This document shows positions 1 through 38,108 of a stretch of 38,108 nucleotides of DNA, piece by piece. Made by a program: the position numbers and the translations under genes. Each line of letters begins with the position of its first letter. Within the stretch, counting starts at the first letter, position 1. Source of the stretch: a virus (Duplodnaviria; Heunggongvirae; Uroviricota; Caudoviricetes). The notes under the pieces are model-generated. The model worked only from the letters and a program-made list of their open reading frames with translations, did not search any database and had not been told where the DNA came from. The DNA is taken from IMG/VR virus record IMGVR_UViG_2563366933_000009, positions 1 through 38,108 of that record; one strand, given 5' to 3'.

Positions 1-94
1 CTTGAGTCTTGAGTCTTGAGTCTTGAGTCTTGAGTCTTGAGTCTTGAGTCTTGAGTCTTGAGTCTTGAGTCTTGAGTCTTGAGTCTTGAGTCTT
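1..94. repeat. Tandem heptanucleotide repeat (CTTGAGT) x13 plus partial unit, running to the window edge
   Basis: Direct reading: 13 perfect CTTGAGT units at 1-91 followed by CTT; the array may continue upstream of the window. Confidence 0.95.
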
Positions 95-172
95 AACATA
101 TTAGTATCCTACGTTATTTTACCACTAGTTACTTTTCTTGTCATTAAAAAGCATTTAAATTTTTATATTTAA

Positions 173-250
173 TTTCGTTGACGTCAATGTTTTTTGCCAA
201 TGTACTTACTTCTTTATGTGATCAGTTCATATTTTTGACGCCAACGAAAC
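173..250. repeat. Imperfect inverted repeat (TTTCGTTGACGTCAA ... TTGACGCCAACGAAA) around an AT-rich spacer just 3' of the tailspike stop; possible terminator or att-arm element
   Basis: 15-bp arms with one mismatch at about 173-187 and 236-250; TTGACGTCAA is itself palindromic; AT-rich context at the prophage end. Confidence 0.35.
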
Positions 251-252
251 AT

Positions 253-3198
253 TTAGTGCTTCCCTTCTATTAAGTCTAACCTAGCTTTTATTCTTTCTAT
301 TTCTCTGCGCTGCCATGCTGCCTCGATATAGAATAAGAGATCAGGTCTGACCCCCCATCTAGATCCTGCTGGCGTTATTTCAACGCGCTCAATGATGTCT
401 TCCATTACCATCACTGGATTATCATCCTCATCAACAATGATGCTCCCGTCATTATCAGTCAGCGGCATTTCCCTTTGGCCAGTAATGACGTCATCATATA
501 CTGCGGGATAATCGTCATAGCAAAGAAAGGCATAGCGGCATGTTGTGCTTTCTTCTTCCATGAGTCCGTGAGAAATAAGAACATCACGAAGTTGCTGCGC
601 GATTACACCATGATGTATCCTCGCCCCTTCTTCCCCCTTTATAGCGACAGCGTTCAGCCATTTATAAGCGATATACCTGACGTCACCCCAGGCATCCAGC
701 AATGCTTCGTCAGGAGAGACCGGCTCTGTCTTTAATGTTCCGTCACTGGTAACCACAGGATTGGAGCCAAGATAAACTGTCGAGAACCTGTTTCCCGGAC
801 CACCAAGAGCATTTACATTATCAAGATAAGGTTTAACATCTCCGTTCTCAAAAAGATGTTCGAGTGCGTTATATACCGCGCGACGTGGAGTACTGCTTCC
901 GGAACCATGCAACGTTATCATTGCACCATCTGCTGAAGACGTTGTTTCACCGCCGCTAACGATTAATCTCTGAGCGGTAACATCATCAGACGGTACTTTC
1001 TTCGCAATAATGGCGTAATTACCCTCAAGTTTGACTTCCGCGCGAACTTGTCCTGATGTACCTGCATGGACAGTCAGTGACTGGACGGCAACATCATCTG
1101 TGAAATCAACGGGTACAGGAACCGTCCTCACGCCTGACGTCGACATAAAAGTAGGAAGCGTTCTGTTAGGAGTGGCTCCGTAGACAAAATCCCTTGAAAC
1201 AAATTCTTCCTGTTTAATTTTCACCCTGAAACAATACAAATCAGCCGGGTGACCATCGTGAAAATAAGGATATTTTCTGTTGTTATCCCCTATGCTCCAT
1301 GGGTTTAGAAAGTCTTCCCCACCGAAAATGTAGTACAGCCAGTTGTCTTTGATACAAACTGAACCAACACCAACCGCAGAGTTAACTATTCCGCCCTGAT
1401 AAATCTGATCAGTAACATTAACCCACTCTACATTATCCAGACTCCACTCATTGACGTTAACTCTGGTCATAAATGTTCTTGGATAGTTTCCTGCATAACG
1501 GTTATCAGGTTCTCCTCCTTCCCACTCACCAAATGCGCGCTCACTGCCAAAAATAATCAGCTCATCGCCAACTTTGGCAAAAGGAAGGTTTGAGTGATGA
1601 ACATTATTTGGGAAGCGAAGAGAATTCCATGATGTACCTAAATCAGAGCTTCTGTGCAATGAACTACCGGGTTGAGTACTTAATGTCCCCCTGGTCGTCA
1701 GATACAGAATGCCATCATAATATTTTACACATGGCTCAGATGCATTCGCCTCATATTCTGCAGGTATGCGTCTGCGAACAAAGCTACCAGGAGAACCGAA
1801 AGCATCAGAGAAATAGAGTATCCCAAGCTCGCGTGGACCAATATCACCATTATGGTAGCCAACAGCAAAACTGTTATCGCTAATCGTCGCAAAACTGTGA
1901 ATCTCAGTAACAGGAGTGCTTCCGTCAACAAAAGAAGGAATAGTTCCAAGACTGGTTTTTCTCCATGGTGACGAGTGAAATGATGTACCAAAACTCCAGT
2001 ATCTACCCTCGTTATTCTGATCCACATCCTGGGTATTTTGCGTCGTAACTGTAAAAGTATTTTTATCAATAACAGTAGTCACCGTCATATTCCCGGTAAC
2101 ACCTGTAACACCAGAGTTTGAGAAGTTGACAAAATCACCAGCAAATAATCCGTGATCAGTAATGCGAATATAAGCGACTTGCTGATTTGCTGCTTTCGTT
2201 ATACCACCATAAACGCGAAGGCTGCGACTCATTGGGCGATCCCACAACTCTGCAACCTGCAGTTTATTTCCGCTCACAGTCCGCGTCTCAATTACAGCAA
2301 AAAGGCGATTTCTGACAACCCCCATACTCATGCAGTGATAGTTAACTGTGGGATAGTTTTCATGTAAATCTGTAAGCCATTCCGGCGTTGTCCAGGTCTT
2401 CCCGTCATCTCCTGAGCGAACCCATGCAACATGGAGGTTATTTACACCATGACGGTCTCCAGCCATAAAAGGCGCATAGATGACATTGTCATATACAAAC
2501 GTTTTATCCTGCGTCCAGGCGTTGTACCACGGTGTATCTGTAATTTTAAATAACTCTCCCTGGATAAAATCTTCAGAAGCATAAAAAAGAGGCTGGCCCG
2601 GTATTCTCTCAAATAAAAAACGAGCATTTTTAAATCGACTGACATCTGGAAGAGTTGATACTTTAAAAGTAAGCCCTCGCCCATCTATCTTTTCACCACC
2701 TGTTGCAACAGAAAGTAATTCTGATAGAGCTGATGTATCATCATGAACACCATCACCAATAGCCCCCCAACCTCTTACATCATAACTGTCTCTCCATCTT
2801 GCTATCTGAAGTTTTGGGTATTTATTCGCTCCATCTGGGTCTTCTAATTGCTGCCGTAACTGATCAGGATCATACTTCAGCACATTAGGAAAATAGAACT
2901 GCTGTGTACCATACGCATCATAAACAGCCATAGAATGGCCTTGCACGGTTACGAATTTGGCAATCTGTCCGTTATATACCGGATATCCAGCAGCGTTAAT
3001 GATTATTGGTTGCGAAACAGGAATGTGAGAACCGTCTTCGTTCTCTACATAAACCTGAATCTGGTTTTCAGGATTTACAGGGTCAGTGTCAATTTTACCG
3101 ATATAAATTTTGCCATTGGCTACGGCTTTAAAAGAACGAGCCATAGTGAAGAGTTGCGAAGGCATACTTACTACAACATTGGCTGTAATGTCTGTCAT
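253..3198 (-). CDS. Tailspike protein: P22 gp9-type N-terminal head-binding domain fused to a different beta-helix receptor-binding/depolymerase domain and a C-terminal intramolecular-chaperone-like domain
   Basis: 981-aa ORF; N-terminus [11 protein letters not shown]...[12 protein letters not shown]...VLKYDPDQ matches the P22 tailspike head-binding domain; [14 protein letters not shown] motif typical of pectate-lyase-like tailspikes; Shine-Dalgarno TGGAG upstream. Confidence 0.9.
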
Positions 3199-3330
3199 TT
3201 AATTTGCTCCAGATACAAGGAATCGCCGCAGCATGGCTACGGTTGGCATTTATTACATACCGAAACGGTACGATTGTTGATTTGTACAGTAGGTTTTACG
3301 ATGCCATTCCACCCATTTGGTGAGGCATTG

Positions 3331-3588
3331 ATGATGTACAGCAAATACGATGAGGCGCAGTTCCACTTGAGGCTTACACACGAGTTGCACGCTAAGATTA
3401 AGCAGCGTGCAAAAATGAATAACAGGTCTATCAATTCCGAAATTGTGGCTACGATGGAAGAATCACTCTCCAAACCATCACCTGTAAGCGGGTATCGTGA
3501 TGAAGAAGAGAGGCTGGCCTCATTAATCTCGGAACGAGTAAAAGAAGTTGCGGCTGAAATTCTAAGGAAAGAAAAAACCCGCGATTAA
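3331..3588 (+). CDS. mnt: Mnt-like ribbon-helix-helix repressor (Arc/MetJ family)
   Basis: Internal ATG of track ORF 2935-3588 preceded by GGTGAGG; product (85 aa) has NNRSINSEIV RHH motif and an SKPSPVSGYRDEEERLA segment resembling P22 Mnt. The upstream part of the track ORF is antisense to the tailspike 5' end and was discarded. Confidence 0.75.
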   Translation: MMYSKYDEAQFHLRLTHELHAKIKQRAKMNNRSINSEIVATMEESLSKPSPVSGYRDEEERLASLISERVKEVAAEILRKEKTRD

Positions 3589-3603
3589 GCGGGTTTAGTT
3601 TTC
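3572..3603. terminator. Bidirectional intrinsic terminator between convergent mnt-like and antirepressor genes
   Basis: Stem AACCCGC/GCGGGTT with 6-nt loop, flanked by an A-run on one side and a T-rich tract on the other. Confidence 0.55.
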
Positions 3604-3614
3604 ATTATAAAATG

Positions 3615-4343
3615 TTACGCCACATTTGAGCCATGTAGCAGGTGTTGTAGTGCTTTAACGCCTTCAGAATTGTAACGGAACGCCTCTACCTGTTTGCTGG
3701 AATGCGCCGATTTATCCAGGAAGAACTTCCCGTACTGCTCAGTTTTGAGGTTGTTTGCGTTAGCAATGCGACCAATCTTGTTGGCCGTTACTCCAAGCTG
3801 CTCTGCAACCTCCCCTGCTGAGTAGTAATGCTCTTCTATTGCCGGAAGAGGTATTGCATTAAAACCAACAAGCGGGTTGATTATACTTGCTGCCGCTGTC
3901 TGCTTTGCCTCAGGCGCAAGATTTGGCATCAGATCGAACAGATTGGTAACAGCTTCAACCGTCATTTTCAATGTTCGCGCTTGACGATACTCAACAAGTC
4001 CACTCGCTGATTTACCGCTTTTAATGTGCGCTTCTTGCATACTTTCAAGTTGGTCTACCAGTGAGCGGCGAACGGCTTTTGACTCGCGAGCGGCAACTCG
4101 CAATGCTTGCTTGATTGACATCTCAATGATAACCATCGAAGTTTTGTTCGCTTTTTGCACTACACTTTTTGTGTAGTGCTCTCCATCCAATTCATCTTCA
4201 ATTTTCTCGATGAATTTGTTATTACGAACCTCCGGCTCACCGCACTGTCTACGAGCCTGATTTACCATCTCAAGCAGGCGCTGGCTGTCAATGGTTTTAT
4301 CCGTGACAACGGATCCGATGTTTGCTACATTCTTAAAAGTCAT
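3615..4343 (-). CDS. Antirepressor-like protein, KilAC-type C-terminal domain
   Basis: Start taken at internal Met (MTFKNVANIG) with AAGGAA Shine-Dalgarno; C-terminal region has the HTH-like motif seen in phage antirepressor KilAC domains; lies in the ant position of an immI-like cluster. Confidence 0.65.
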   Translation of the reverse strand: MTFKNVANIGSVVTDKTIDSQRLLEMVNQARRQCGEPEVRNNKFIEKIEDELDGEHYTKSVVQKANKTSMVIIEMSIKQALRVAARESKAVRRSLVDQLESMQEAHIKSGKSASGLVEYRQARTLKMTVEAVTNLFDLMPNLAPEAKQTAAASIINPLVGFNAIPLPAIEEHYYSAGEVAEQLGVTANKIGRIANANNLKTEQYGKFFLDKSAHSSKQVEAFRYNSEGVKALQHLLHGSNVA

Positions 4344-4412
4344 TAGGCATTCCTTATGTGGTAGTAAGGGTGTGACATAGGCCGCCAGCAGCACACTGGC
4401 GGTTTTCTTTTT
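4338..4412 (+). ncRNA. Putative sar-like antisense RNA covering the translation start of the KilAC antirepressor gene
   Basis: Plus-strand promoter-like GTGACA -17 bp- TACATT at about 4303-4331 inside the antirepressor 5' coding region, and a plus-strand intrinsic terminator about 75 nt downstream; no plus-strand gene is served by this terminator. Confidence 0.3.
4382..4412 (+). terminator. Intrinsic terminator on the plus strand (antisense to the ant genes)
   Basis: Stem CCGCCAG/CTGGCGG with 7-nt loop followed by TTTTCTTTTT. Confidence 0.55.
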
Positions 4413-4431
4413 GCGCCGTCCGGCGCACCAA

Positions 4432-5070
4432 TCAATGAATCCATTCCTCGCCGCGCAGTTTTGCCAGCATTGGCTGAGCGTTCTTTACGACAAAATTGTT
4501 GGTATCAAGATTCTTCATTTCACGAAGAAGTGATTTCTTGGTTTCTTCTGACATATAGCGAGTCTCATATGCGATATCGTAAATCCTTCCTGAAAGCTCA
4601 GAACAAATTTGCTTCATTCCTGGGTAGATGTGTTTGCACATTTGTTGACTCTTCTCCATCCACAATTGTAAGTAGCAGAGATTAACCAGTTCTTCGTCAG
4701 TAAACTGTTTTGCAATCGGTGAGCATTCTGCCTGCCGATCCAAAATATCCAGCACCCAGCGGCGGAACTCTTTGGCCTTGGGCGTAGAAGCAAACATCGC
4801 CACCAAGTGAGCGCCTCGGAGCGAGTAAACTCTGACCGATTTGTTACGTAAGCTATTGTTTATTCCGTTGACCTTCATATTGAGGGTCAATGACATTGAG
4901 TCGGAAAATTCGTCAGCATTACGGGCATAAATTTGGCTGATGGCATCAGTTTTTTTATAGCCGAGAGCCTTAGCTAGTTCGGCGGAGGTGAACCAGATAG
5001 ACCCGCCCTCTGTTACAGGGTTAAAAGTGAATCCTTGGAAGTTATAATCTGATTTTGCTACAATATTCAT
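4432..5070 (-). CDS. Bro-N domain antirepressor-like protein
   Basis: Start taken at MNIVAKSDYNFQGF with AAGGAAA Shine-Dalgarno 5 nt upstream; N-terminal motif FQGFTF...IWFTSAELAKALGY is typical of Bro-N domains; immediately downstream of the arc-like gene. Confidence 0.7.
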   Translation of the reverse strand: MNIVAKSDYNFQGFTFNPVTEGGSIWFTSAELAKALGYKKTDAISQIYARNADEFSDSMSLTLNMKVNGINNSLRNKSVRVYSLRGAHLVAMFASTPKAKEFRRWVLDILDRQAECSPIAKQFTDEELVNLCYLQLWMEKSQQMCKHIYPGMKQICSELSGRIYDIAYETRYMSEETKKSLLREMKNLDTNNFVVKNAQPMLAKLRGEEWIH

Positions 5071-5143
5071 GTTAGTTTCCTTGCATACGGTTACTGACAT
5101 AGAGGCCCGGTTTGTGTTCGCGCACTGCCGGGCTTCACTATTT

Positions 5144-5320
5144 TTACTGGGCATTAGCTCTTTCCTCTCTCAGGCTTTTAGCCAGTCGCTGCACAATCGC
5201 AGAGTTGATAGAAATTCCATCCATTTCAGCTACGCGTCTGATCTCCTCCTTCATTCGCGCTGGCAAACGAAGCTGGAAACTCTGACTTTTACGACCACTG
5301 TAAAGAACATCGCTCATCAT
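5144..5320 (-). CDS. arc: Arc-like ribbon-helix-helix repressor
   Basis: 58-aa product from internal Met with GGAGA Shine-Dalgarno; FQLRLPARMKEEIRRVAEMDGISINSAIVQRL matches the Arc/Mnt RHH fold pattern; divergent from an mnt-like gene as in P22 immI. Confidence 0.7.
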   Translation of the reverse strand: MMSDVLYSGRKSQSFQLRLPARMKEEIRRVAEMDGISINSAIVQRLAKSLREERANAQ

Positions 5321-5336
5321 CAATATCTCCGTCATA

Positions 5337-5357
5337 ATGACATCACCATGATGTCAT
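5337..5357. promoter_or_regulatory. 21-bp operator-like palindrome in the arc / mnt-like divergent intergenic region
   Basis: ATGACATCA-CCA-TGATGTCAT, perfect 9-bp inverted arms; a second inverted pair CATTATG ... CATAATG lies just downstream. Confidence 0.5.
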
Positions 5358-5440
5358 GACACCATTATGATGCCATTGCTCATAATGTCAATATGATGCT
5401 ACTGTGTTTTTTATTGCTCATATGCCTTGCGAATAAGAAA

Positions 5441-5692
5441 ATGTCAGAAAAAGACGAATCAAATTTCATAGAAAGATTTACGGTTAGAATGCCTGACGGC
5501 ATGCGTAGTGCTATTGCGGAAAGGGCTAAACGAAACGGTCGATCTATGAACTCAGAGATAGTTCAAATTCTTGAGGATGCGTTATCATATGACGTCTCAT
5601 CAGTAGACAAATCATTAGATCTTAAACAAATAAAATCTTTACTTGATAAAATTTCCAACGAGTTACTGGATAGAATCCCAAAAGACACATAA
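5441..5692 (+). CDS. Second Mnt/Arc-family RHH repressor paralog
   Basis: Internal Met start (MSEKDESNFIERFTVRMPDGMRSAIAERAKRNGRSMNSEIVQILEDAL) with RHH signature RxxNGRSMNSEIV; divergent from arc. Confidence 0.6.
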   Translation: MSEKDESNFIERFTVRMPDGMRSAIAERAKRNGRSMNSEIVQILEDALSYDVSSVDKSLDLKQIKSLLDKISNELLDRIPKDT

Positions 5693-5738
5693 CAAAACAT
5701 TATCATCCGGTGTTCTGCTCAAAACTAAGGAGGTTGGT

Positions 5739-6059
5739 GTGTATATATCGCTATCTACCATTTTTTTCATCTGCTTAGCTATTTGGCTTTTAAGAATATG
5801 GCAGGATTGCTCTGTCAGCCATGCTGCTGCGGTGAGAAATAAAAACGCCCTCATAAAAGAAGCTGAAAACGTTGTTTTATCAATGGATCACCTTTCATGG
5901 ACCGAGATGACTACAGGGCAACAAGAGGTTTATGAGTGTGCGATTGAGCGGTTAAGGCTGCTTAAATCGTACAAAAAGAACCACGCACCCGACTCATTCC
6001 CATTCCTGAAAGAATGGCCGAGATGGTATGACCCGAGAAAAGCAACCATCAACCGCTAA
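5739..6059 (+). CDS. Small single-pass membrane protein, paralog of the cI-linked ORF at 30739-31053; function unknown
   Basis: GTG start 6 nt after AAGGAGG; hydrophobic N-terminus ISLSTIFFICLAIWLL; shares a YECAIERL-centred region and a W-P motif with the ORF at 30739-31053. Confidence 0.6.
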   Translation: MYISLSTIFFICLAIWLLRIWQDCSVSHAAAVRNKNALIKEAENVVLSMDHLSWTEMTTGQQEVYECAIERLRLLKSYKKNHAPDSFPFLKEWPRWYDPRKATINR

Positions 6060-6067
6060 CCAACTTT

Positions 6068-8074
6068 TTACTGCCGGGCTTTCTCACTTGAAGCCTGAAT
6101 TAGAGGTGTAAGAGTTTCAGATACCCGTCTGATCGCTCTATCATAAGCAGTACTTCCTTTTGGTGTGTTTGCTAACTTTAGTAATGCGTTCCTCATCGCG
6201 CGTGACTCATAGCCCCTGCCAGCCATACCGATACCAGCTCCAACTGCCGCAACTTTTGCAAACATTGGATTTGTAACAGACGCAAGAGCTGTTATCAGCG
6301 CTGCTGGACCAGCTACCATTTGCCCTGTTAGTGGGCTTGCGGCAGCAGTAGCTGCCTGTCTAGTGGAATCAAGATATTTCATTATCCCATCAAGCTGTTT
6401 CCCATGCTCTCCTCTGAAGAACGTCTCAGCCTGCTTCCGATTCCTTTTCATTTCATTAATAAACTTCTCAACGCTAAGCTTTCCTGAATCGCTTGTCGCC
6501 TTATCCATTGCACGCTGAACAAGTGCTGCTCTAGCATTTTGACGCCCACTATCATCAAGCAATCGATAAAGTTGCGCCCTTTCCGCTGGGCTTTGGCTGA
6601 ATACTAGTTTAGTGACATCTTCTGGCGTTGTTTTACCACTCTGAATAGCTTTTTGGACACGTGTATTGCTCATCATGTCGTTGAACTTTGCCCAAGAACG
6701 ATCAACACGCGACATGTTTTGCGCTTCCTTCGCACCTAGTTTTGCGCCAACCGCTTTTTTCATGTCTGTTGTGTATGCGTTATAAACAGACTGCGCAGCT
6801 TTCTCCAGCGTATCTCTATCGACCTCGTCAGGTGCTGCCATAAAGCGCTTACGTAAGTTTGTACGGTTTTCTCTAGCTAATTGCAGGTTATTTGGACCGC
6901 TGGTGATGTCATTTCTAAACTGTTGAAGGACAGAAACAGCTGAGCGGTCTTGCGATACTCCTGGGCGAGTTAACTTGGAAATCTGCTCATCAATTGCTTT
7001 CACTGTTCCAGTGATGTCAACAGGAGTATCCCCCATCAAACTGATGATCCTGTCGTACCGCTTGCCAGCAGCCTGAATAAATTGCTGCTGACCACGAGTA
7101 GCTGATTGGTAAAGTTGTGCGTCAGATATTCCACCAACATTATCGCTAAATGTTCTAACTAAATCTTCCCTGGCCTTTTGCTGTGCATTTCTTATCCCAC
7201 CTGTTCCGGCTATTGGGATTCGCTCAGCCATAGCTCGTGCTTGCTTACCAATATTTGTTCCCGGTTCCACAAGATCTGTTGTCATCAGTGGCAAGTTGTT
7301 CTGCTTGGCAAAGTCAATCTGAGCTTGTTTTTCAGGAGCTATCTTACCCATAGCAGAACGAGACACTGCGCTTGCGGTGTTTTCTACACCCTTCAGTACC
7401 CCACCAAGACCAGCAGAAATTGCAGTTTGAACTGGATTAACATTCTCACCGCCAGCGATCTTAGTGGCCCCCTGTAAAGCTAAATCAGTAGCGCCTGATT
7501 TTAGTGTTGCACCTACAACAGACGCAGCTCTACCTGCTGGAGTGAATGCAAGAGCATTTGCCAAGAATGACGTTATATCCTGCGGTGACAAACCAGGCTT
7601 GTTAAGTGCATATTCCCCTGAAGGAAGGGTGACTATGGAATTTCCCTTCTCATCCTTCCGGATTTTCCCGCCAATACTTTGCAGTATTTTCTCCTGTGAA
7701 GCGTCGGAACCAAATAGCTGCCCCAATCCAGCACGCAGCGCATCAGTGCTTAAGCTATTAAGCTCTGGAGCAGACCCAACATTTTGCAGTCTCTCCATTT
7801 CTGGTGTCATTCGGCTTTCACCGGTAACGGCATCGCGCATTGCAGCACCTAAAACAGCCCCTTGCTCAGCAGAGCGATCTAGTCCTTCCTTCTGCTGAGT
7901 GGCAAGCTGTGCATATCCTGATGCAAGTGAGTTGTCTGCTGGCGATTGCTGAACACCTTGTTGTGTTGGTGCTGACTGACCAGCAAAATACTCATCAATG
8001 GCGGTGCCAATATCTTCGGTGCTCGTACCATCAGGGAAGGTAAATGTCTTACCGTTTGCAGTAACTTTCATCAT
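6068..8074 (-). CDS. Ejection (injection) protein, P22 gp16-like
   Basis: 668-aa ORF at the gp16 position in a P22-type gene order; Gly/Ala-rich composition; overlaps the upstream gene stop. Confidence 0.8.
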
Positions 8075-9537
8075 TCCACCGTAAATTGAATGCCTGATTT
8101 TGAGGTATATGATCCGGATTGACTCTGCTGCTGTTGGGTATTTGTCGGTTGTTGGCTATTGCTCTGTTGTTGACTATTTGCAGCACTTGAAACCACCAAA
8201 GCATCATAAACGCGACCAGACTGACCACGTAATGAGTTATATTGGCCCTGCATTTTTCGCATTTTTGTTTCAGTAGCAGCCTTGGAATCACCGGGCTGAG
8301 GCAGGTACATTTTGGAATACTCCTGCATCTCTGGCAGAGTAATTGCTGCACCTGTTTCTGGGCGCAAAATTGCATACAAGGCGTCTCTCGCATTTACCAT
8401 ATATTGCTGCTCCGCTGGTGATAGGCTTAAATTTGCAATAGTCCCATCACCAAGAGAGCGATTTATTAATGCAACTCGCTTAGGGTCAATGCTTTTACTA
8501 AGCTGATTCATTGAGTCCATTGAATCTTTTAATCGCAAAGCAAATCCTGCCGCCTTCTTGGAACCCTCATTAGCCTTATCTATGATGCTTTGCGCTTGTG
8601 GCAAGCTAATTGGTTTAATGCCATCACCAGATATAGGTTGGTTTAGTTTTCCTGCTTCCTCGCTGCCATCGGTGTAATACTTAGTTACCGAGCCATCAGG
8701 ATTGGTTTCAACCTTAAGTAATTTCTTAGCATTGGGATTAATTCCCGCCGCTGCCGCAAATGCCGCTGCACCATCTGGATCCGCCTTTAACATTTGCGCG
8801 TACTGATTGTAATTCTGCATTGCGGCTGTTGGTGCATATGCTGACGTTAACGCATTTGCTCGGCTAATATCCTGCCCTCTCGCCTGAAGTGCCTCTCCTG
8901 CCTGATTGCTGCGGATTGTCTCTGCCAGTCTGCCTCGGTCAATCTCACGACCAGCCATCTTGTCCTGAACATTGAAGTAATCAATCGGACCAAGCGCAGC
9001 CATTCCAAGGTGATCAACAAACTCACCAAATCCTGAAGGATTCTGCTGATACATCTGAGCAACGTTATTAGGGTCAACACCGACGCGCGCCAGCTCATTG
9101 GCGTTGTTTTGCAGCCATGATTGCATTGCTTCTGGAGAAGATGACGCAAGACGTGCGCCAGCCGCTAATGTACCGATAGAATTACGCTGTTCTTCATCAA
9201 TGAATCCCATGCCTTTACGAACGGATTCAATCTGGTCTGGATATTGAGTAGCCAACTGACGCAAAGCACCGCGATCACCAGAAGCATAAGCATTAGCGTA
9301 TGCCTGCTGAAATTCTTTCTGCCGCTGAGCCTGCTTTTCCTGCTGAAACACCCCCGCAATACCTGAAAGGCCTTGCAAAGCAGTCAGCCCAACATTGTTA
9401 GCGCCTGAACGCTCAATATCATTGTTCTGCCTGATAAGCTGAAGCGTATTGCCGATGTCATTTACGCTCGGAGCGTTTGAGTTGACGCCGCCGATACCAG
9501 CCAACAATCCGCCATTTGATCCTTGCCAAGTAGCCAT
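8071..9537 (-). CDS. Ejection protein, P22 gp20-like
   Basis: 488-aa ORF in syntenic position between gp7-like and gp16-like genes; ATGA coupling to downstream gene. Confidence 0.8.
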
Positions 9538-25468: not shown

Positions 25469-25605
25469 AGGTGAGCCGTGTAGTTGAAGGTTTTTACGTC
25501 AGATTCTTTTGGGATTGGCTTGGGTTTATTTCTGGAGCGTTTCGTTGGAAGGTATTTGCAGTTTTCGCAGATGATGTCGGTGAAACTTCGTCGCTGTCGT
25601 CTCAT
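25423..25605 (-). CDS. ninE: NinE-like protein
   Basis: Internal Met start; [27 protein letters not shown]...[14 protein letters not shown] closely matches lambda NinE. Confidence 0.75.
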
Positions 25606-26012
25606 TCGTACCTCCTGTCGGTAAATCTGACACCCTGACCAACAGCCCATGCTGTCGTGTACTCAATCAGGCTTGCCATGCGCTTCACGCTCATCTGTGC
25701 GCTGCTTTCGCGAATGTTGACGTATTCACCTTCAAGGCCGGGCAAAACATCAGCTTCCTGTTTTGTTGCCACTGCATGACCGCTGATCAACAAAACCTTC
25801 CATTGTTCCGGTTTTAACCATTTGCCGCACCATTGAACCTGACGAGCGATATCCGCCAGCATCGCGTGAAATTTTGCGTTCTGGTCAAGGTTGCGCTTGT
25901 AGTCAATAATGCGGATGGTGACTGGCTTGTCTTTATCGAGTGGTGTTGCTAGGATGGCGTTGATTGCGGCTTGCTGTTGTTGCTTAGTTCGGAGGAATAT
26001 TGTTTGCTTCAC
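25602..26012 (-). CDS. ninB: NinB (Orf) recombination mediator
   Basis: 136 aa, lambda NinB-like sequence and position. Confidence 0.85.
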
Positions 26013-26023
26013 TGAACACTCCT

Positions 26024-26215
26024 TTATTTTTTATGCCTGTAACCCCATTCTTCCAGCAACCTTGCGGCGTACCACCCAAGAAACAAAGGAAAGAACATTA
26101 CAATGAGATATTCCCCGCCACGGTCAATGTTCGAAATTGACCAGATTACGATGTAACCAGTGCAGGACAGGAATATTACAAACCCCAAAAAGCTACTTCG
26201 TCGACTCATGCTCAC
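26024..26215 (-). CDS. Small hydrophobic protein
   Basis: 63 aa, two predicted hydrophobic segments; nin-region position. Confidence 0.45.
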   Translation of the reverse strand: MSMSRRSSFLGFVIFLSCTGYIVIWSISNIDRGGEYLIVMFFPLFLGWYAARLLEEWGYRHKK

Positions 26216-26520
26216 TCCTTCACTTTGATTCCAGCGGCGCGGATAGCCTCTACATCGCTTTCGTATTGCGATTCTGCACCTGAGTCATAGCCAATGTGAT
26301 AATCACCGGGAAGTGGGCCTTTCTTTGGCTTTTGCAGCTCAATCTCGATAACTGCTCGCGATGCCTGCCATAAAGTCCACCACTCATTTAAGGAGTGACG
26401 AATATCCATGCTTGAAAATGCGAAGTACCTATCACCATTTCTTGCCTCGGTTATCATCTCGAATTGTAATCTCAATTTTTTGGCAACGTATTCCTCAAAC
26501 TGCTTTCTTGATTCGTCCAT
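26212..26520 (-). CDS. Hypothetical protein
   Basis: 102-aa ORF overlapping the downstream gene start; co-oriented with early-right operon. Confidence 0.5.
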   Translation of the reverse strand: MDESRKQFEEYVAKKLRLQFEMITEARNGDRYFAFSSMDIRHSLNEWWTLWQASRAVIEIELQKPKKGPLPGDYHIGYDSGAESQYESDVEAIRAAGIKVKE

Positions 26521-26537
26521 CGATACTTACCCTCAGT

Positions 26538-26744
26538 TCAACTCACAAAACGCCACGCCACTTTTGCTATAGCGACAGGCGCAACACCGATAATCACCCA
26601 CAGGAGAATGCTACCGAACAGCACACCCACCAGGTCTTTACCTTCGCCTACCAACCGGACAAAACTTCCGACAACCACAATGAACGTCGCCACCATCCAC
26701 ATAGCACCGAGAAGCCTCAATGCAGAGAAAATTAACTCAGCCAC
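26538..26744 (-). CDS. Small hydrophobic membrane protein
   Basis: 68 aa, almost entirely hydrophobic (two TM-like segments). Confidence 0.45.
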   Translation of the reverse strand: MAELIFSALRLLGAMWMVATFIVVVGSFVRLVGEGKDLVGVLFGSILLWVIIGVAPVAIAKVAWRFVS

Positions 26745-26769
26745 GATTTACTCTCCCCCAAATAAAAAG

Positions 26770-26801
26770 GCCTGCGATTACCAGCAGGCCTGTTATTAGC
26801 T
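26770..26801 (-). terminator. Intrinsic terminator after the helicase gene (tR2-like position)
   Basis: Minus strand: stem AGGCCTGC/GCAGGCCT with 8-nt loop followed by TTTTTATTT. Confidence 0.5.
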
Positions 26802-26819
26802 CAGTGATGTAGATGGTCA

Positions 26820-28271
26820 TCAGAATCCTCCTTTCTTCTTGGATTGCGGTTCCTCGCGTTCACGGCGGCGCATTTCAGCAGACTGTTGGTCTGTGTCATA
26901 AATAGCGCCATTTGCCTGAATGCAATACACCGTGCCGGTATTGCCATGACGATTGAGACGAAGGATTAGTTCGGTTTCACCAGGTGGAACACTGTCATCA
27001 AAAGCGCCTTCACGATGGATCCCAACCCAATAATCGCAATCCTGTTCAATCTGCCCTGTATCTCGTGAGTCACTTGGTAATGGGCGTTTATTGGTTCGGC
27101 TTTCCAGTGCGCGGTTAAGCTGTGTCAGAAGCACAACAACGCAATCAAGCTCTTTGGCAAGGTTCTTCAGTCCTTTGGTGATCATGCCGTAAGCAAGGTC
27201 GTTGCGATCGGCCTTCTCAGCAGTCATTAGTGTCAGGTAATCGACCAGAATCATGCCAACACATCCTTTTTCTCGCTTGATTCGACGGCTTTCGCTGACG
27301 ATTTGAGCCAGAGATAATCCCGGCGTGTCGTCGATGTAAAGCATGTCGATTTCACTCAAGCGATTGGCTGTTTCGATCGCCCTGTTGAAGTCACCATCGT
27401 AATCACCCTGATAGCCGTCATCGGCGTCATTTGTCGCCGGAAGGTAAAAAATATTCGGGTTAACACCAGACTTCTGCCCTACCAGTTTTTCCAGTATCTG
27501 ATCACCTGGCATTTCAAGGCTGAACATCAGAGCGGGCTTTTTCTCATGCACTGCGCAATTGATTGCCATCTGGCTGTATAGCGTCGTTTTCCCCATCTTA
27601 GGGCGAGCGCCAATGACAAACAGAGAGCCTTTCACCAGACCTTTCGGTGACAGCATCCTGTCCAGCGATGGGATCCCTGTGCTCATTCCTCGCTGTTCGC
27701 CTGACGGGTCAAATCGCTTCTCAAGGTCGCTAACCCAGTCTTCCATGACCTCACCAAATGAGCGAAGGCCGCGACGCGATCCGGTTTTTGCATGGTCTGT
27801 CAGTTGCGTGAAAATCGCCTGAATAGCTTCGTACTTCTGCGTTGCAGTCATTCCGTTGCGGGAATAGAGCAATTCCGTCGCTTCAGTCATGCGGTTGATG
27901 GCGTAGCGTTCCATTGCGGTTTCACGAACCTGCATTGCATAGGCAACGATGTTTGCTGCGCTTGGCGTGTTCTTTGCGATCTCAGCGATATAAGCAAAAC
28001 CGCCAACAGACGCCGTTAACGATTTACGCTCCAGTTCATCGAAAAGCGTCAGGCCATCTACTGGCTTTTGCTCCCGGTGCATTCTGGTTATTTCTTCGAA
28101 AAGGATTTTGTGTGGTCGGCTGTAAAATGAGTCAGGCTTCAGCATCGCCAGAACCTTCTGGACGCGCTCACTGCTGTCATCATCCAGAAGCAATCCACCA
28201 ATCACCGCCTGCTCTGCCTCGATGCTATGGGGCGGCGCATAAAAATTATCGGTCATCGTGTTCACCCTCAC
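26820..28271 (-). CDS. Replicative DNA helicase, DnaB family (P22 gp12-like)
   Basis: 483 aa; Walker A GARPKMGKT and DnaB-type N- and C-terminal domain pattern. Confidence 0.95.
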   Translation of the reverse strand: MRVNTMTDNFYAPPHSIEAEQAVIGGLLLDDDSSERVQKVLAMLKPDSFYSRPHKILFEEITRMHREQKPVDGLTLFDELERKSLTASVGGFAYIAEIAKNTPSAANIVAYAMQVRETAMERYAINRMTEATELLYSRNGMTATQKYEAIQAIFTQLTDHAKTGSRRGLRSFGEVMEDWVSDLEKRFDPSGEQRGMSTGIPSLDRMLSPKGLVKGSLFVIGARPKMGKTTLYSQMAINCAVHEKKPALMFSLEMPGDQILEKLVGQKSGVNPNIFYLPATNDADDGYQGDYDGDFNRAIETANRLSEIDMLYIDDTPGLSLAQIVSESRRIKREKGCVGMILVDYLTLMTAEKADRNDLAYGMITKGLKNLAKELDCVVVLLTQLNRALESRTNKRPLPSDSRDTGQIEQDCDYWVGIHREGAFDDSVPPGETELILRLNRHGNTGTVYCIQANGAIYDTDQQSAEMRRREREEPQSKKKGGF

Positions 28272-29136
28272 GAACTTTCAGGTAGGTATTATCGTTAAGC
28301 AGGAAATCAAATCCCTTTTTGTGCCAGACAGTTCCGCGTTGATGGTTTGGGCGCTCTTCGAACATCCATCGGCAATTTTCGCCTACGTAGCTCAAATAAT
28401 TTCTCCAGTCCTGCATCGTGAAACCATGCCCGTCAAGCTGTCGGGTTATCACTCCGGCTTTGCGCCAGAACGTTCGGATCTGGTTTTTACGCTTGTCATT
28501 CAGTGCGCGGATTCTTGGCGCTTCAGGAAGGATTTCGTGGTAAGCATCGACAACATCCTGACAGCTAACGGAAGGTTTTTTCTTGTCAGACTTTTTGTCT
28601 GCTGTGGCACTCTCTAATACGTCAGTATTAGAGATATTATTTATATTATTGTTTATGGACAACCGTTGGACAACCGTTGGACAATCTCCGCTGAGAGCCG
28701 CGCCATTACTGGTGTTTGCGTTGGACAACCGTTGGACAACCGTTGGACAATTTTTTGCCTGAAAATCGTCATATTTAACGATTGTAAACAGGCTAAATTT
28801 CTTCCCCATCGAGCAAATATTAAGCATACCTTTCGACTCAAAAGTCCGTAATAAGCTCCGAACTTTGTTGTCGGGGATGAATGTTTCTCTGACCAGCGAC
28901 GGGCGTCCAGTTATCATCTGACCGCGATCAACAGTTATCGGACCGATATCCGTATTGACGACAGTAGATTCGTGATTAGCCTTGAGGATTAAGTGAAGCC
29001 AAAGATGTACTGCCTGAGAGTCCTTATAGAGCCTGCTGTCCATAAACTGGCGGTGTATAGAGACATACCCCATACTGGATGCCTCCTGATGTTGTACAGG
29101 GTTATGCCTGTAATCAGCTAACTTAACGACGCCCAT
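28246..29136 (-). CDS. Replication initiator (lambda O / P22 gp18 functional analogue) with ori iterons inside the gene
   Basis: 296-aa ORF upstream of the helicase; contains direct 11-bp iterons that translate to the repeated peptide PTVVQRLS. Confidence 0.8.
   Translation of the reverse strand: MGVVKLADYRHNPVQHQEASSMGYVSIHRQFMDSRLYKDSQAVHLWLHLILKANHESTVVNTDIGPITVDRGQMITGRPSLVRETFIPDNKVRSLLRTFESKGMLNICSMGKKFSLFTIVKYDDFQAKNCPTVVQRLSNANTSNGAALSGDCPTVVQRLSINNNINNISNTDVLESATADKKSDKKKPSVSCQDVVDAYHEILPEAPRIRALNDKRKNQIRTFWRKAGVITRQLDGHGFTMQDWRNYLSYVGENCRWMFEERPNHQRGTVWHKKGFDFLLNDNTYLKVREGEHDDR
28657..28750. repeat. Replication origin iterons: five direct copies of an 11-bp unit (CCGTTGGACAA) in two clusters, followed by an AT-rich tract
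   Basis: Two copies plus a partial copy at about 28657-28690 and three at about 28718-28750; AT-rich run at about 28751-28800. Confidence 0.8.
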
Positions 29137-29284
29137 GCTTCACTCCTGCTTTGGCTAGTCTGTAAACACCAACAAGGCGCTCTGCGAACGCCCTGTTATT
29201 TGCTGCGGCTACCACTAATCCCTCAGGTGAATCAGGGTGTCGAATCTCTTCTTTTTCCTGGTATTTCTTACGACGTTTTGTCAT
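29123..29284 (-). CDS. Small basic hypothetical protein between cII and the initiator gene
   Basis: 53-aa ORF (MTKRRKKYQEKEEIRH...) with AGGAG Shine-Dalgarno 6 nt upstream; overlaps the initiator start; below the ORF-track size cut-off. Confidence 0.35.
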   Translation of the reverse strand: MTKRRKKYQEKEEIRHPDSPEGLVVAAANNRAFAERLVGVYRLAKAGVKHGRR

Positions 29285-29318
29285 AATGACTCCTGTGGAT
29301 TGATCCAGTCTTTCTACA

Positions 29319-29600
29319 TCAGGCCTCGAAGAATTCGCCGTTCTTCGGGGCTTTTTCTTTTGTCAGGTAATTGGCAAGCCGCTTAGTCAGCTCAGCCATT
29401 TCATCGTCTTCGATTCCGTATTCCAGAACAGCCAGCATCATGCTTACCTGCGAGAAGAAACCATTCTTCCATCGGCTTACCTGATATTCAGGAACCCCCA
29501 TTGCTCGAGCGAATGTCTTCTGCCCCATCAGTGCCAGTTTGTTCAGCAAGGCTGACTCGATGCGAGCCGCTTTCTTGCTTTTAGTTGCAATAGTACCCAT
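29319..29600 (-). CDS. cII: CII-like lysogeny establishment activator
   Basis: 93 aa; RIESALLNKLA...SRWK...MLAVLEYG matches lambda CII. Confidence 0.9.
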   Translation of the reverse strand: MGTIATKSKKAARIESALLNKLALMGQKTFARAMGVPEYQVSRWKNGFFSQVSMMLAVLEYGIEDDEMAELTKRLANYLTKEKAPKNGEFFEA

Positions 29601-29676
29601 AGATAATTTCCTTAATTATTAGATAGAGTTGGCTTCGCAAAGAAACGCAAAACCATAGAGATTTGTTTCTGGTAAT

Positions 29677-29708
29677 GCCCTTTTTCAGGGCGGGGATGTG
29701 TAAGAGCG
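29677..29708 (-). promoter_or_regulatory. nutR-like site (boxA + boxB)
   Basis: Minus strand reads CGCTCTTACACA ... GCCCTGAAAAAGGGC, matching lambda nutR boxA and boxB, between cro and cII. Confidence 0.7.
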
Positions 29709-29716
29709 TTAATAAC

Positions 29717-29947
29717 TTAAGCGGCCATTAATTCAGGCCAGATGCTTTCCCAATCAACCGGATGAAGGTCTTTGCGAGTCACTTCACCATTGCTGAACTT
29801 CTCAATCAGAACACAAAGTGCTGCGCCCAATTCATGATTACGGCTAAGTGCTTTCCTCAAATAGCCGATAGAAGTTCCGCACTTGGTGGCAAATTCTCTC
29901 TGCTCTTCCAGTGAAAGGGAGTTCAGATACAAGCGGAGTTCTTCCAT
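29717..29947 (-). CDS. cro: Cro-like repressor
   Basis: 76-aa HTH protein (EQREFATKCGTSIGYLRKAL) divergent from the cI-like gene across an operator region. Confidence 0.8.
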   Translation of the reverse strand: MEELRLYLNSLSLEEQREFATKCGTSIGYLRKALSRNHELGAALCVLIEKFSNGEVTRKDLHPVDWESIWPELMAA

Positions 29948-29982
29948 TTGCTATCTCCTTCCCGTTGTTGAATAAGATGAGT

Positions 29983-30036
29983 TTACCTGTAGGTAAAAAG
30001 CAAATCAATACCCATAGGTTATTTACCGGCAGGTAA
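29983..30036. promoter_or_regulatory. OR operator region with divergent PR/PRM
   Basis: Two 14-bp dyad sites TTACCTGTAGGTAA and TTACCGGCAGGTAA in the 108-bp cro/cI intergenic region. Confidence 0.6.
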
Positions 30037-30055
30037 TCAAAGATAGAATTAAATC

Positions 30056-30742
30056 ATGGATAAATACGAACAAAGACGACTAAGGCTGATAGAGATAAGA
30101 GACCGATTCTGTAATGGAAAGGCCTCAGAGTTGGCTCGTCGAATAGAAAGGGAACCATCATACGTTTCCAGAATGCTGTATCCGGAAGGAAAAAGCGGAA
30201 AAAAACGCATTGCTGACGATATGATGGAGCTAATTGAAAAATCTTTTAATCTCCCACGCGGATGGATGGACATGCTTGCAGATGGTAAAGCTGGAGCTAC
30301 GGACCATCTTGAGTTTGCGGGTAACGTTCGTGCGGGTTTTGTTCCGGTAATTGGTGAAGCCGTTTTGGGAGTTGATGGCTCAGTGGATATGATTGAATTC
30401 AGATCCGGTTGGTTAAGCATCTACAGCGGCGATAAAGATGCTTACGGTCTGAAGGTTAAGGGTGACAGCATGTGGCCAAGGATTCAGTCAGGAGAATATG
30501 TTGTTATTGAACCAAATACGCCAGTACATCCAGGTGATGAAGTCTTTGTAAGGACCAAAGACGGTCACAACATGATAAAGATCATGAACAAAACAAGAGA
30601 CGGTGATTATCAGTTTAGTAGCATAAACAGTGATCACCGCCCAATCACTCTTCCTGTTGAAGAAGTTGATAAAATGCATTTTGTTTCAGCTATTGTGAAA
30701 CACACCAGGTACGTAGACCAGGACGATCTGCCAAAAGTTTGA
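30056..30742 (+). CDS. cI: CI-like prophage repressor (HTH plus S24 LexA-like autopeptidase domain)
   Basis: 228 aa; C-terminal GDSMWPRI...GEYVVIEP...GDEVFVR...KIM signature of S24 peptidase-type repressors. Confidence 0.9.
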   Translation: MDKYEQRRLRLIEIRDRFCNGKASELARRIEREPSYVSRMLYPEGKSGKKRIADDMMELIEKSFNLPRGWMDMLADGKAGATDHLEFAGNVRAGFVPVIGEAVLGVDGSVDMIEFRSGWLSIYSGDKDAYGLKVKGDSMWPRIQSGEYVVIEPNTPVHPGDEVFVRTKDGHNMIKIMNKTRDGDYQFSSINSDHRPITLPVEEVDKMHFVSAIVKHTRYVDQDDLPKV

Positions 30743-31053
30743 GGATAAAGCAGCAAATGTTTATACCCGGCATAGTAGTCGCTGTTGTAATCATCTGCTT
30801 CATATGGGCAAAGTTATCTCCTGTAAGCTCTAAGCATACAGCTGAACTCATGAGGAAGAAGCATCTTATACATGAGGCAGAATCGATAATTAAAAAGTTC
30901 AAAGGCATGTCATACGACGACATGTCATCAGAGCAGATTGCTATGTATAAATGCGCCATTGAGCGCCTTGACTACTTAAACGGACTCAAACCCAAACACA
31001 CCCCAGTAGAATCAAAATTGCCGCAATGGCCAAGCAATCCAAATAGCTTCTGA
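30739..31053 (+). CDS. Small single-pass membrane protein co-transcribed with cI (Rex-position gene), paralog of 5739-6059; function unknown
   Basis: ATGA-type overlap with the cI stop; hydrophobic N-terminus IPGIVVAVVIICFIWA; YKCAIERL motif shared with 5739-6059; followed by an intrinsic terminator. Confidence 0.6.
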   Translation: MRIKQQMFIPGIVVAVVIICFIWAKLSPVSSKHTAELMRKKHLIHEAESIIKKFKGMSYDDMSSEQIAMYKCAIERLDYLNGLKPKHTPVESKLPQWPSNPNSF

Positions 31054-31064
31054 CATCTCCTTTC

Positions 31065-31088
31065 AGCCCGCAAAGCGGGCTTTTTTAT
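31065..31088 (+). terminator. Intrinsic terminator ending the cI operon
   Basis: Stem AGCCCGC/GCGGGCT with AAA loop followed by TTTTTTAT. Confidence 0.6.
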
Positions 31089-31106
31089 ATCAATCCAAAA
31101 AATTAA

Positions 31107-31191
31107 TTACCTGAAAATTCAATCAGGTAAACTCTCACATCAATTTTATTTACCTACAGGTATAGACAGAGGTTTTACCTGTAGGTATATT
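31107..31191. promoter_or_regulatory. OL operator region and PL-like promoter
   Basis: Dyad sites TTACCTGA..TCAGGTAA, TTACCTACAGGTA and TTACCTGTAGGTA of the same family as OR; -35 TAGACA, 17-bp spacer, -10 TATATT reading toward N. Confidence 0.55.
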
Positions 31192-31232
31192 TTAAGCCAT
31201 CAGCAGGACGCACTGACCACCATTGAAGGTGA

Positions 31233-31263
31233 CGCTCTTAAAAATTAAGCCCTGAAGAAGGGC
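31233..31263 (+). promoter_or_regulatory. nutL (boxA CGCTCTTAA, boxB GCCCTGAAGAAGGGC)
   Basis: Matches lambda nutL boxA and boxB, upstream of the N gene. Confidence 0.8.
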
Positions 31264-31461
31264 AGCATTCAAAGCAGAAGGCTTTGGGATTGGATGAATG
31301 AGCAGGCTGATGCTCGACCAATGTATAAACAGCGCTCATGGCAAGCAGTAACCAATCTGCGCCTCAAGACAGCGTCACTGGTAGTGCGGGCGCTCTAACC
31401 AGTAAGCCGGGGTTCAGCGCCGGCCATCCAATCACCAAAGCTAACTGACAGGAGAATCCAG

Positions 31462-31788
31462 ATGGATGCACAAACACGCCGCCGCGAACGTCGCGCAGAG
31501 AAACAGGCTCAATGGAAAGCAGCAAATCCCCTGTTGGTTGGGGTAAGCGCAAAACCAGTTAACCGCCCTATTCTCTCGCTGAATCGCAAACCGAAATCAC
31601 GAGTAGAAAGCGCACTGAATCCGATAGACCTTACGGTGCTGGCTGAATACCACGAACAGATTGAAAGCAACCTGCAGCGTATTGAGCGCAAGAATCAGCG
31701 CACATGGTACAGCAAGCCACGCAGTGAAATGGGTGTGACTTGTGTTGGTCGCCAGAAAATGAAATTAGGCAGCAAACCACTTATTTGA
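31462..31788 (+). CDS. N: Antitermination protein N (lambda-type)
   Basis: MDAQTRRRERRAEKQAQWKAANPLLVGVSAKPVNRPILSLNRKPKSRVESALNPIDLTVLAEY... is near-identical to lambda N. Confidence 0.95.
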   Translation: MDAQTRRRERRAEKQAQWKAANPLLVGVSAKPVNRPILSLNRKPKSRVESALNPIDLTVLAEYHEQIESNLQRIERKNQRTWYSKPRSEMGVTCVGRQKMKLGSKPLI

Positions 31789-31796
31789 GGTGAGAT

Positions 31797-32272: not shown

Positions 32273-32292
32273 ATCTATGAGGATATGAATAG

Positions 32293-34767: not shown

Positions 34768-34778
34768 CGGTATCGCCT

Positions 34779-36202: not shown

Positions 36203-36203
36203 T

Positions 36204-37865: not shown

Positions 37866-37907
37866 GCCTGATTTGCAGGTTCGATTCCCTATTCGGAGAT
37901 AGCACTC

Positions 37908-38108
37908 ATGCAACACGAACTACAGCCTGATTCACTGGTTGATTTGAAATTCATCATGGCCGATACTGGCTTCGGTAAAACCTTCATCTACGACCGGATT
38001 AAGTCCGGCGACCTGCCAAAAGCCAAAGTTATCCACGGACGAGCAAGATGGTTATATCGTGACCATTGTGAATTCAAAAATAAGCTCTTAAGCCGCGCTA
38101 ATGGGTAA
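37908..38108 (+). CDS. xis: Excisionase-like (AlpA/Xis family) DNA-binding protein
   Basis: 66 aa; LVDLKFIMADTGFGKTFIYDRIKSGDLP...RWLYRDH fits the winged-helix excisionase/AlpA pattern; last gene before the expected integrase, which lies beyond the window. Confidence 0.6.
   Translation: MQHELQPDSLVDLKFIMADTGFGKTFIYDRIKSGDLPKAKVIHGRARWLYRDHCEFKNKLLSRANG

What the first reader, a model, noticed from the sequence alone, without database searches (positions are those of the whole stretch)
1..252. Heptanucleotide VNTR at the prophage/host junction
Thirteen perfect CTTGAGT repeats are cut by the window edge; they lie about 160 bp beyond the tailspike stop, where attR is expected. Short tandem arrays like this are hypervariable and may mark the integration site or a phase-variable locus. 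The adjacent 173-250 inverted repeat could be an att arm or terminator.
Basis: seen in the sequence. Interest (0 to 1): 0.45.

Follow-up and report, generated by a model that had tools for sequence, protein, structure and literature searches.

The report
Phase-variable repeat tract of neuO
The 7-base repeat is the well-known slippery coding tract at the start of neuO, a prophage gene that switches acetylation of the E. coli K1 capsule on and off; it is not the prophage's integration site, so the finding is real but already explained.

Summary
Window 1-94 holds 13 perfect CTTGAGT units plus 3 bases, cut by the window edge. A 15-nt inverted repeat lies at 173-187/235-249, and the tailspike stop is 158 bp from the array.

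Read on the minus strand, the array is ATG-TT-(AAGACTC)n, coding M-L-(RLKTQDS)n. [quoted passage not shown] Window 1-3243 is 99.2% identical to CUS-3, whose record annotates this array.

In 15 complete E. coli genomes the copy number ranges from 10 to 34. Only multiples of three give a full-length enzyme; other counts stop 3 or 18 codons after the array. This matches the published slipped-strand ON/OFF switch.

The att reading fails. To the left of the array relatives carry the neuO body, intS and argW with attL. The recombination core CTGCAGGGGACACCAT is absent from the window, and attR lies about 95 bp beyond the window's other end, after torI.

The inverted repeat stays with the tailspike 3' flank in a relative that lacks neuO, and it is not a canonical terminator.

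Verdict: already known, low interest.

The parts
1..94 (-). poly-psi VNTR of neuO: 13 full AAGACTC units plus 3 nt (AAG), truncated by the window edge. It encodes (RLKTQDS)n.
   Evidence: annotated as 'neuO poly(psi) domain' in CP000711
95..99 (-). neuO start codon ATG (99-97) plus the two bases TT that precede the first repeat unit
   Evidence: [quoted passage not shown]
107..110 (-). Shine-Dalgarno-like AGGA, 7 nt upstream of the ATG
   Evidence: read from the sequence; inferred
116..144 (-). sigma-70-like promoter candidate for neuO: -35 ATGACA, 17-nt spacer, TG-extended -10 TAAAAT (10 of 12 matches)
   Evidence: consensus match only, no transcript data
173..249 (.). inverted repeat TTTCGTTGACGTCAA / TTGACGCCAACGAAA with a 47-nt spacer, immediately 3' of the tailspike stop
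   Evidence: retained in phage 720R6, which lacks neuO
253..3198 (-). endosialidase tailspike (siaK1 type): P22 head-binding domain, endosialidase domains and an S74 chaperone domain
37873..37888 (+). TTGCAGGTTCGATTCC, a copy of part of the argW T-arm. It is annotated as the 'att core' in CP000711, but it is not the crossover site seen in an attP-form relative.
37908..38108 (+). torI-type excisionase gene (recombination directionality factor). It is the last gene before attR, and the window ends at its stop codon.
   Evidence: PMC2951348

Best explanation
The array is the poly-psi contingency tract of neuO, the acetyl-CoA-dependent O-acetyltransferase for the K1 polysialic acid capsule. The gene is carried as cargo by a CUS-3-like (P22-like) prophage, between its endosialidase tailspike gene and intS. 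neuO runs on the minus strand and leaves the window to the left. Its ATG is at 99-97, followed by TT and then tandem AAGACTC units. Three units (21 nt) encode one RLKTQDS heptad. The coding strand of the repeat has no stop in any frame, so translation always runs through the array. Slipped-strand mispairing during replication adds or removes units. Only when the unit number is a multiple of three does the reading frame continue into the 214-residue left-handed beta-helix catalytic body (ON). Otherwise translation stops 3 or 18 codons after the array (OFF). [quoted passage not shown] The resulting ON/OFF capsule acetylation changes susceptibility to K1-specific phages, neutrophils and serum. 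Shown here: the identity and reading frame of the array, its genomic position, the copy-number variation and the frame rule. Taken from the literature: the slippage mechanism, the enzyme activity and the phenotypes. Inferred: the neuO promoter at 116-144, and the view that the window's left end is an assembly break inside the array.
For: Minus-strand reading gives ATG TT (AAGACTC)13 AAG, translated M L (RLKTQDS)n. Window 1-3243 is 99.2% identical to CUS-3 CP000711 2274-5516, whose record annotates the array as 'neuO poly(psi) domain, 19 copies of AAGACTC'. The intergenic stretch 95-256 is 100% identical to CUS-3. Fifteen complete-genome loci with the same flanks have 19, 30, 28, 18, 13, 20, 16, 22, 10, 34, 12, 23, 29, 30 and 11 units. 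Nine viral contigs have 8-32 units. Translation of those 15 loci gives 244-286 aa with the 214-aa body when n mod 3 = 0. It stops after 3 aa for mod 1 and after 18 aa for mod 2. RefSeq annotates a full-length acyltransferase only in the four mod-0 loci. The full-length ORF matches PDB 3jqy, NeuO, at E = 1.8e-160 and the Hexapep family. The mechanism and phenotypes come from PMC3046976, PMC13001214 and PMC9659370.
Against: The window ends inside the array, so the neuO body, the total unit number and the ON/OFF state of this copy cannot be seen. No complete genome in the collection matches the whole window, because the prophage is a mosaic. The continuation is therefore inferred from relatives rather than read in the source genome. 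The promoter assignment rests on a consensus scan only.
Confidence: 0.96

Rival explanations
1. The array marks attR or the integration junction of the prophage, and the neighbouring inverted repeat is an att arm.
For: The array sits at the edge of the window, just beyond the last structural gene. In some P22-like phages attP does lie beyond the tailspike and conversion genes (own knowledge).
Against: In 13 of 15 relatives examined, the neuO body and intS follow the array, and argW follows in 11 of them. The experimentally defined 16-nt core CTGCAGGGGACACCAT (PMC2951348) is absent from the window at up to 3 mismatches, and the window has no tRNA. In GN06667 the core lies after torI, about 95 bp beyond the window's right end. 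An attP-form viral contig joins torI, the core and intS, with flanks matching attR-left at 118/120 and attL-right at 117/120.
Confidence: 0.01
2. The array is a relic. In this particular prophage neuO is disrupted or deleted beyond the window edge, so the tract is a neutral VNTR with no expression consequence.
For: CUS-3-like prophages decay. Only 158 of 207 genomes with a match keep at least 80% of the neuO body. IS elements sit in or near the module in some loci. One viral contig lacks the 12 nt that include the ATG (L144). Phage 720R6 lacks the whole neuO cassette.
Against: In the window the promoter-like site, the Shine-Dalgarno motif, the ATG and a perfect array are all intact and identical to CUS-3. 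The tailspike ORF is also intact. A perfect array of more than 13 units is what active slippage and selection maintain.
Confidence: 0.04
3. The array acts at the level of transcription, as a repeat that changes promoter spacing, rather than through the reading frame.
For: Promoter-spacer repeats are a known class of phase-variation switch (own knowledge). DsdC also affects neuO transcript levels (PMC9659370).
Against: The array lies downstream of the ATG, not between -35 and -10 elements. The three-fold periodicity of full-length ORFs fits frame control exactly. Published work ties ON to multiples of three.
Confidence: 0.01

Closest known systems
neuO poly-psi domain of prophage CUS-3 (E. coli K1 RS218; Deszo et al. 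2005, King et al. 2007, as cited in PMC3046976)
   Same: Same unit (AAGACTC), same placement 2 nt after the ATG, same upstream 162 bp (100% identical), same neighbouring endosialidase tailspike (99.2% over 3.2 kb).
   Different: Only the copy number (at least 13 here, 19 in RS218) and the mosaic remainder of the prophage. Window 3244-9522 and much of the early region do not match CUS-3.
Other intragenic short-repeat contingency loci switched by frame, such as Neisseria opa (CTCTT) and Haemophilus lic and mod genes (tetranucleotides); own knowledge
   Same: Slipped-strand mispairing in a 5' coding repeat switches translation in and out of frame.
   Different: Here the unit is a heptamer, and the translated repeat also tunes enzyme efficiency. 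The locus is carried by a prophage rather than the core genome.
Serotype-converting acetyltransferase cargo of P22-like phages, such as Sf6 oac; own knowledge
   Same: A surface-polysaccharide O-acetyltransferase carried as cargo next to the tailspike and integration module. It modifies the receptor that the phage's own tailspike recognises.
   Different: Oac is an integral membrane acyltransferase and has no repeat-based switch. NeuO is a soluble left-handed beta-helix enzyme (PDB 3jqy).
OatWY of Neisseria meningitidis W-135/Y (PDB 2wlc)
   Same: Closest solved structural and sequence relative of the NeuO body (E = 6.3e-31; PMC3046976).
   Different: It has no poly-psi N-terminal extension, a different acceptor polysaccharide, and a chromosomal capsule-locus context.

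Membership tests
neuO poly-psi contingency locus (CUS-3 type) | Perfect tandem copies of 5'-AAGACTC-3' on the coding strand | tested here: met
   13 full units plus 3 nt, 100% matches
neuO poly-psi contingency locus (CUS-3 type) | Array begins two nucleotides after the ATG and reads as RLKTQDS heptads | tested here: met
   ATG TT (AAGACTC)n translates to M L (RLKTQDS)n; definition in PMC3046976
neuO poly-psi contingency locus (CUS-3 type) | Array is followed by the hexapeptide-repeat (left-handed beta-helix) O-acetyltransferase body | tested here: inconclusive
   The window ends inside the array. All 15 complete-genome loci, and the viral contigs that keep the downstream flank, continue into the neuO body. 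That body matches PDB 3jqy at E = 1.8e-160 and the Hexapep family.
neuO poly-psi contingency locus (CUS-3 type) | Located in a P22-like prophage beside an endosialidase tailspike | tested here: met
   The tailspike at 253-3198 has Head_binding plus endosialidase domains. It is 99.2% identical to CUS-3.
neuO poly-psi contingency locus (CUS-3 type) | Unit number differs between strains | tested here: met
   10-34 units in 15 genomes and 8-32 in 9 viral contigs. Published ranges are 3-53 (PMC13001214) and 2-93 (PMC3046976).
neuO poly-psi contingency locus (CUS-3 type) | Full-length translation only when the unit number is a multiple of three | tested here: met
   Shown on 15 related loci. The state of this window's copy is unknown because the array is cut.
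attL/attR of the IntS/TorI (KplE1, HK620, CUS-3) recombination module | Contains the 16-nt core CTGCAGGGGACACCAT shared with the 3' end of argW | tested here: not met
   No match in the window at up to 3 mismatches. The core is defined in PMC2951348.
attL/attR of the IntS/TorI (KplE1, HK620, CUS-3) recombination module | Lies at the junction with host DNA, next to intS (attL) or torI (attR) | tested here: not met
   In relatives the array is separated from attL by the neuO body and intS, about 2.2 kb. attR follows torI at the other end.
Intrinsic (Rho-independent) terminator, considered for the 173-249 inverted repeat | G+C-rich stem with a short loop followed by a T/U run | tested here: not met
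   0 terminator-like sites in 1-600. The loop is 47 nt and no U tract follows. The RNA fold is nevertheless more stable than shuffles (z = -3.5).
Promoter-spacer repeat switches | Repeat lies between the -35 and -10 elements or upstream of the transcription start | tested here: not met
   The array is downstream of the ATG. The promoter-like hexamers lie at 116-144.

The most novel reading that the evidence does not exclude
The 15-nt inverted repeat at 173-249 could be a functional regulatory or insulating element. It lies between the tailspike stop and the neuO promoter, and each arm carries a TTGACG hexamer, within the 10-bp palindrome TTGACGTCAA in the left arm (TTGACGCCAA in the right). 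It might be an operator or an RNA 3'-end structure that separates late-operon read-through from lysogenic neuO expression. That would add a transcriptional layer to the known slippage switch. Nothing in my evidence excludes this, and nothing supports it beyond the fold stability and the position.
Probability: 0.12. Interest if true: 0.3.

Novelty: already known. Interest (0 to 1): 0.08.

Why it matters
For annotation, the result shows three things. The left end of this window lies inside a known virulence-associated contingency gene, not at a prophage boundary. The prophage is a CUS-3-type K1 capsule-modifying phage, so the host is very probably a K1-encapsulated ExPEC-type E. coli. The repeat count read from a truncated contig must not be used to call neuO ON or OFF. 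Biologically it adds nothing new. The locus, its mechanism, the enzyme structure and the phenotypes (resistance to K1 phage and neutrophils, serum sensitivity) are published.

Tried and rejected
1. attR or integration site: rejected.

2. Array continuing at the other end of the window, as in a circular permutation: no copies there.

3. Finding the source genome: no complete E. coli genome covers 80% or more of either 9.5-12 kb query, because the prophage is a mosaic. None of 18 viral contigs is identical to the window.

4. Inverted repeat as an intrinsic terminator: fails the pattern.

5. Inverted repeat or promoter region as a DsdC operator: no shared word longer than 8 nt with the dsdX-dsdC intergenic region. 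Dropped.

6. Inverted repeat shared with other tailspike modules: the 162-bp region occurs in only three phage records, all of CUS-3 type. There is therefore no covariation data.

7. The primary papers (PMC555961, PMC1951898) are not held in the library. Their content is cited second-hand through PMC3046976 and PMC13001214.

8. AAGACTC arrays in distant phyla: their flanks are unrelated and they are mostly intergenic. They are not homologues of neuO. A literature search for them found nothing relevant.

Full report
**1. The observation**

Window 1-94 is a perfect period-7 array of 13.4 copies of CTTGAGT, with 100% matches and TRF score 188. Two-unit matches occur 12 times against 0.24 expected, and 0 of 100 shuffles reach that number. 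The array begins at base 1, so the count is a lower bound. There are no further copies elsewhere in the window, including its far end. The tailspike ORF is 253-3198 on the minus strand, so its stop is 158 bp from the array. The inverted repeat is real: 173-187 and 235-249, 15 nt, 93% complementary, with a 47-nt spacer.

**2. What the array is**

On the minus strand the sequence reads ATG (99-97), TT, then (AAGACTC)13 and AAG. This translates to M-L-(RLKTQDS)n. An AGGA motif lies 7 nt upstream of the ATG.

A sigma-70-like site lies at 144-116 on the same strand: ATGACA, a 17-nt spacer, then TG-extended TAAAAT, matching 10 of 12 consensus positions.

The plus strand of the unit contains TGA, which falls in every frame. 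The minus strand is open in all three frames, as expected for coding sequence.

Megablast shows that window 1-3243 is 99.2% identical to Enterobacteria phage CUS-3 (CP000711) 2274-5516. That record annotates the array as 'neuO poly(psi) domain; 19 copies of heptanucleotide repeat AAGACTC', and the adjacent ORF as the endosialidase tailspike siaK1. Window 95-256 is 100% identical to CUS-3.

The tailspike carries the P22 head-binding domain, four endosialidase domains and the S74 chaperone domain.

The literature describes exactly this layout: a VNTR of 5'-AAGACTC-3' inserted two nucleotides after the neuO start codon. Three units encode one RLKTQDS heptad, and copy numbers of 2-93 are reported. 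Full-length translation occurs only at multiples of three. [quoted passage not shown]

**3. Extending the locus through relatives**

The neuO body occurs in 207 of 5,426 complete E. coli genomes, and 158 of them hold at least 80% of it.

I fetched 14 of these loci and added CUS-3 itself. The typical order is yfdC, tRNA-Arg (argW), intS, neuO (opposite strand), the array, then the tailspike. In a few genomes the module sits elsewhere, for example next to bioA-ybhB.

Unit numbers are 19, 30, 28, 18, 13, 20, 16, 22, 10, 34, 12, 23, 29, 30 and 11. Nine viral contigs with both flanks present have 8, 8, 9, 11, 11, 12, 13, 18 and 32.

Translating from the ATG gives the following:

| Unit number mod 3 | Product |
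|---|---|
| 0 | 244-286 aa, including the 214-aa body |
| 1 | stops 3 aa after the repeat |
| 2 | stops 18 aa after the repeat |

RefSeq annotates a full-length acyltransferase only in the four mod-0 loci. Elsewhere it annotates a 111-aa internal fragment.

The full-length product matches the NeuO crystal structure 3jqy at E = 1.8e-160, then OatWY (2wlc) at E = 6.3e-31. It also matches the Hexapep family.

That criterion is clearly not met.

**4. Where the att sites really are**

The IntS/TorI module of KplE1, HK620 and CUS-3 recombines at a 16-nt core, CTGCAGGGGACACCAT, which is the 3' end of argW (PMC2951348).

- The core is absent from the window at up to 3 mismatches, and the window has no tRNA.
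- In relatives, attL lies at argW. It is separated from the array by intS and the neuO body, about 2.2 kb.
- The last ORF of the window, 37908-38108, is torI. In strain GN06667 the core follows torI by about 95 bp, and dsdC comes next.
- A metagenomic viral contig (L148) shows the attP form: torI, the core, then intS. The left flank matches attR-left at 118/120, and the right flank matches attL-right at 117/120.

The window therefore lies wholly inside the prophage. It lacks both att cores, intS and the neuO body, about 2.3 kb in all.

Several IMG/VR proviral contigs end inside the array. Two end at the same torI stop as the window. This suggests that the left end is an assembly break in the repeat and the right end is a gene-boundary trim. 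That is an inference.

**5. The inverted repeat**

As RNA on the tailspike strand it forms a 16-bp stem with a large loop. The fold energy is -25 kcal/mol, with z = -3.5 against shuffles. No U tract follows, and the terminator scan finds nothing.

Phage vB_EcoP-720R6 lacks the whole neuO cassette. Relative to strain SW4848 it has a clean 878-bp gap, running from just 3' of the neuO stop to the -35 hexamer. It nevertheless keeps the inverted repeat. The repeat therefore belongs to the 3' flank of the tailspike.

My best guess is a 3'-end RNA structure or insulator between the late operon and the separately promoted cargo gene. This is inferred, not shown. It shares nothing with the dsdX-dsdC operator region.

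**6. Mechanism and novelty**

Shown here:
- identity of the array
- reading frame
- genomic position
- copy-number variation
- the mod-3 rule

Taken from the literature:
- slipped-strand mispairing, with +/-1 unit the most frequent event
- acetyl-CoA-dependent O-acetylation of polysialic acid at O7/O9
- heptad-dependent catalytic efficiency
- DsdC-dependent transcription
- protection against K1 phage and neutrophils, with increased serum sensitivity

This is the neuO contingency locus described in 2005, so it is already known. The only open points for this copy are its total unit number and its ON/OFF state, which the truncated window cannot give.

**7. Side observations**

These are listed separately: the discrepancy in the CUS-3 att annotation, the neuO presence/absence indel, an allele lacking the start codon, heptamer tracts with a GACTC core in distant phyla, and 11-nt repeats in the replication gene.

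Noticed in passing
window 37873-37888, and about 95 bp beyond window end (L017, L148): The 16-mer TTGCAGGTTCGATTCC, annotated as the attL/attR core in the CUS-3 record CP000711, lies upstream of torI. An attP-form relative (L148) and the KplE1 literature place the crossover at CTGCAGGGGACACCAT, downstream of torI. The CUS-3 record therefore probably ends about 300 bp short and omits its own excisionase gene. The two 16-mers together resemble an argW 3' half that is split by torI.
   Followed up: partly
L019 (phage vB_EcoP-720R6) versus L013 (strain SW4848), equivalent to window 1-139 and leftwards: The neuO cassette is present or absent as a discrete 878-bp unit, from just 3' of the neuO stop to the -35 hexamer. 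In these two genomes the tailspike/neuO module sits next to bioA-ybhB (the lambda att region) instead of argW.
   Followed up: partly
L144 (IMGVR_UViG_3300007747_000060), array start: In this allele the 12 nt TACTAATATGTT/C, which include the neuO start codon, are missing. The array follows ...AACGTAGGA directly, so the gene may be locked OFF.
   Followed up: no
L021-L140 (GTDB species representatives): Exact (AAGACTC)x4 occurs in at least 120 contigs from distant phyla, including Planctomycetota, Acidobacteriota, a Methylococcales sponge symbiont and Balneolaceae. Several genomes have many loci each. The copies sit in longer period-7 tracts of related units with a GACTC core (AGGACTC, AAGACTA, AAGGCTC and others). 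Their flanks are unrelated to neuO, and they are mostly intergenic, often within 150 nt upstream of an ORF start. I ran no control heptamer and found no relevant literature.
   Followed up: partly
window 28656-28684 and 28719-28750: Two perfect 11-nt tandem repeats (TGGACAACCGT x2.6 and CGTTGGACAAC x2.9) lie inside the 296-aa ORF 28246-29136 on the minus strand. That ORF neighbours a DnaB-like helicase gene. They are probably origin iterons inside a lambda-O-like replication gene.
   Followed up: no
window 3244-9522 and 25600-36800: These stretches do not match CUS-3 at megablast level, and no complete E. coli genome covers the whole window. The prophage is a new mosaic that carries the CUS-3 tailspike/neuO and torI ends with a different immI/ejection-protein region and a different early region.
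   Followed up: partly
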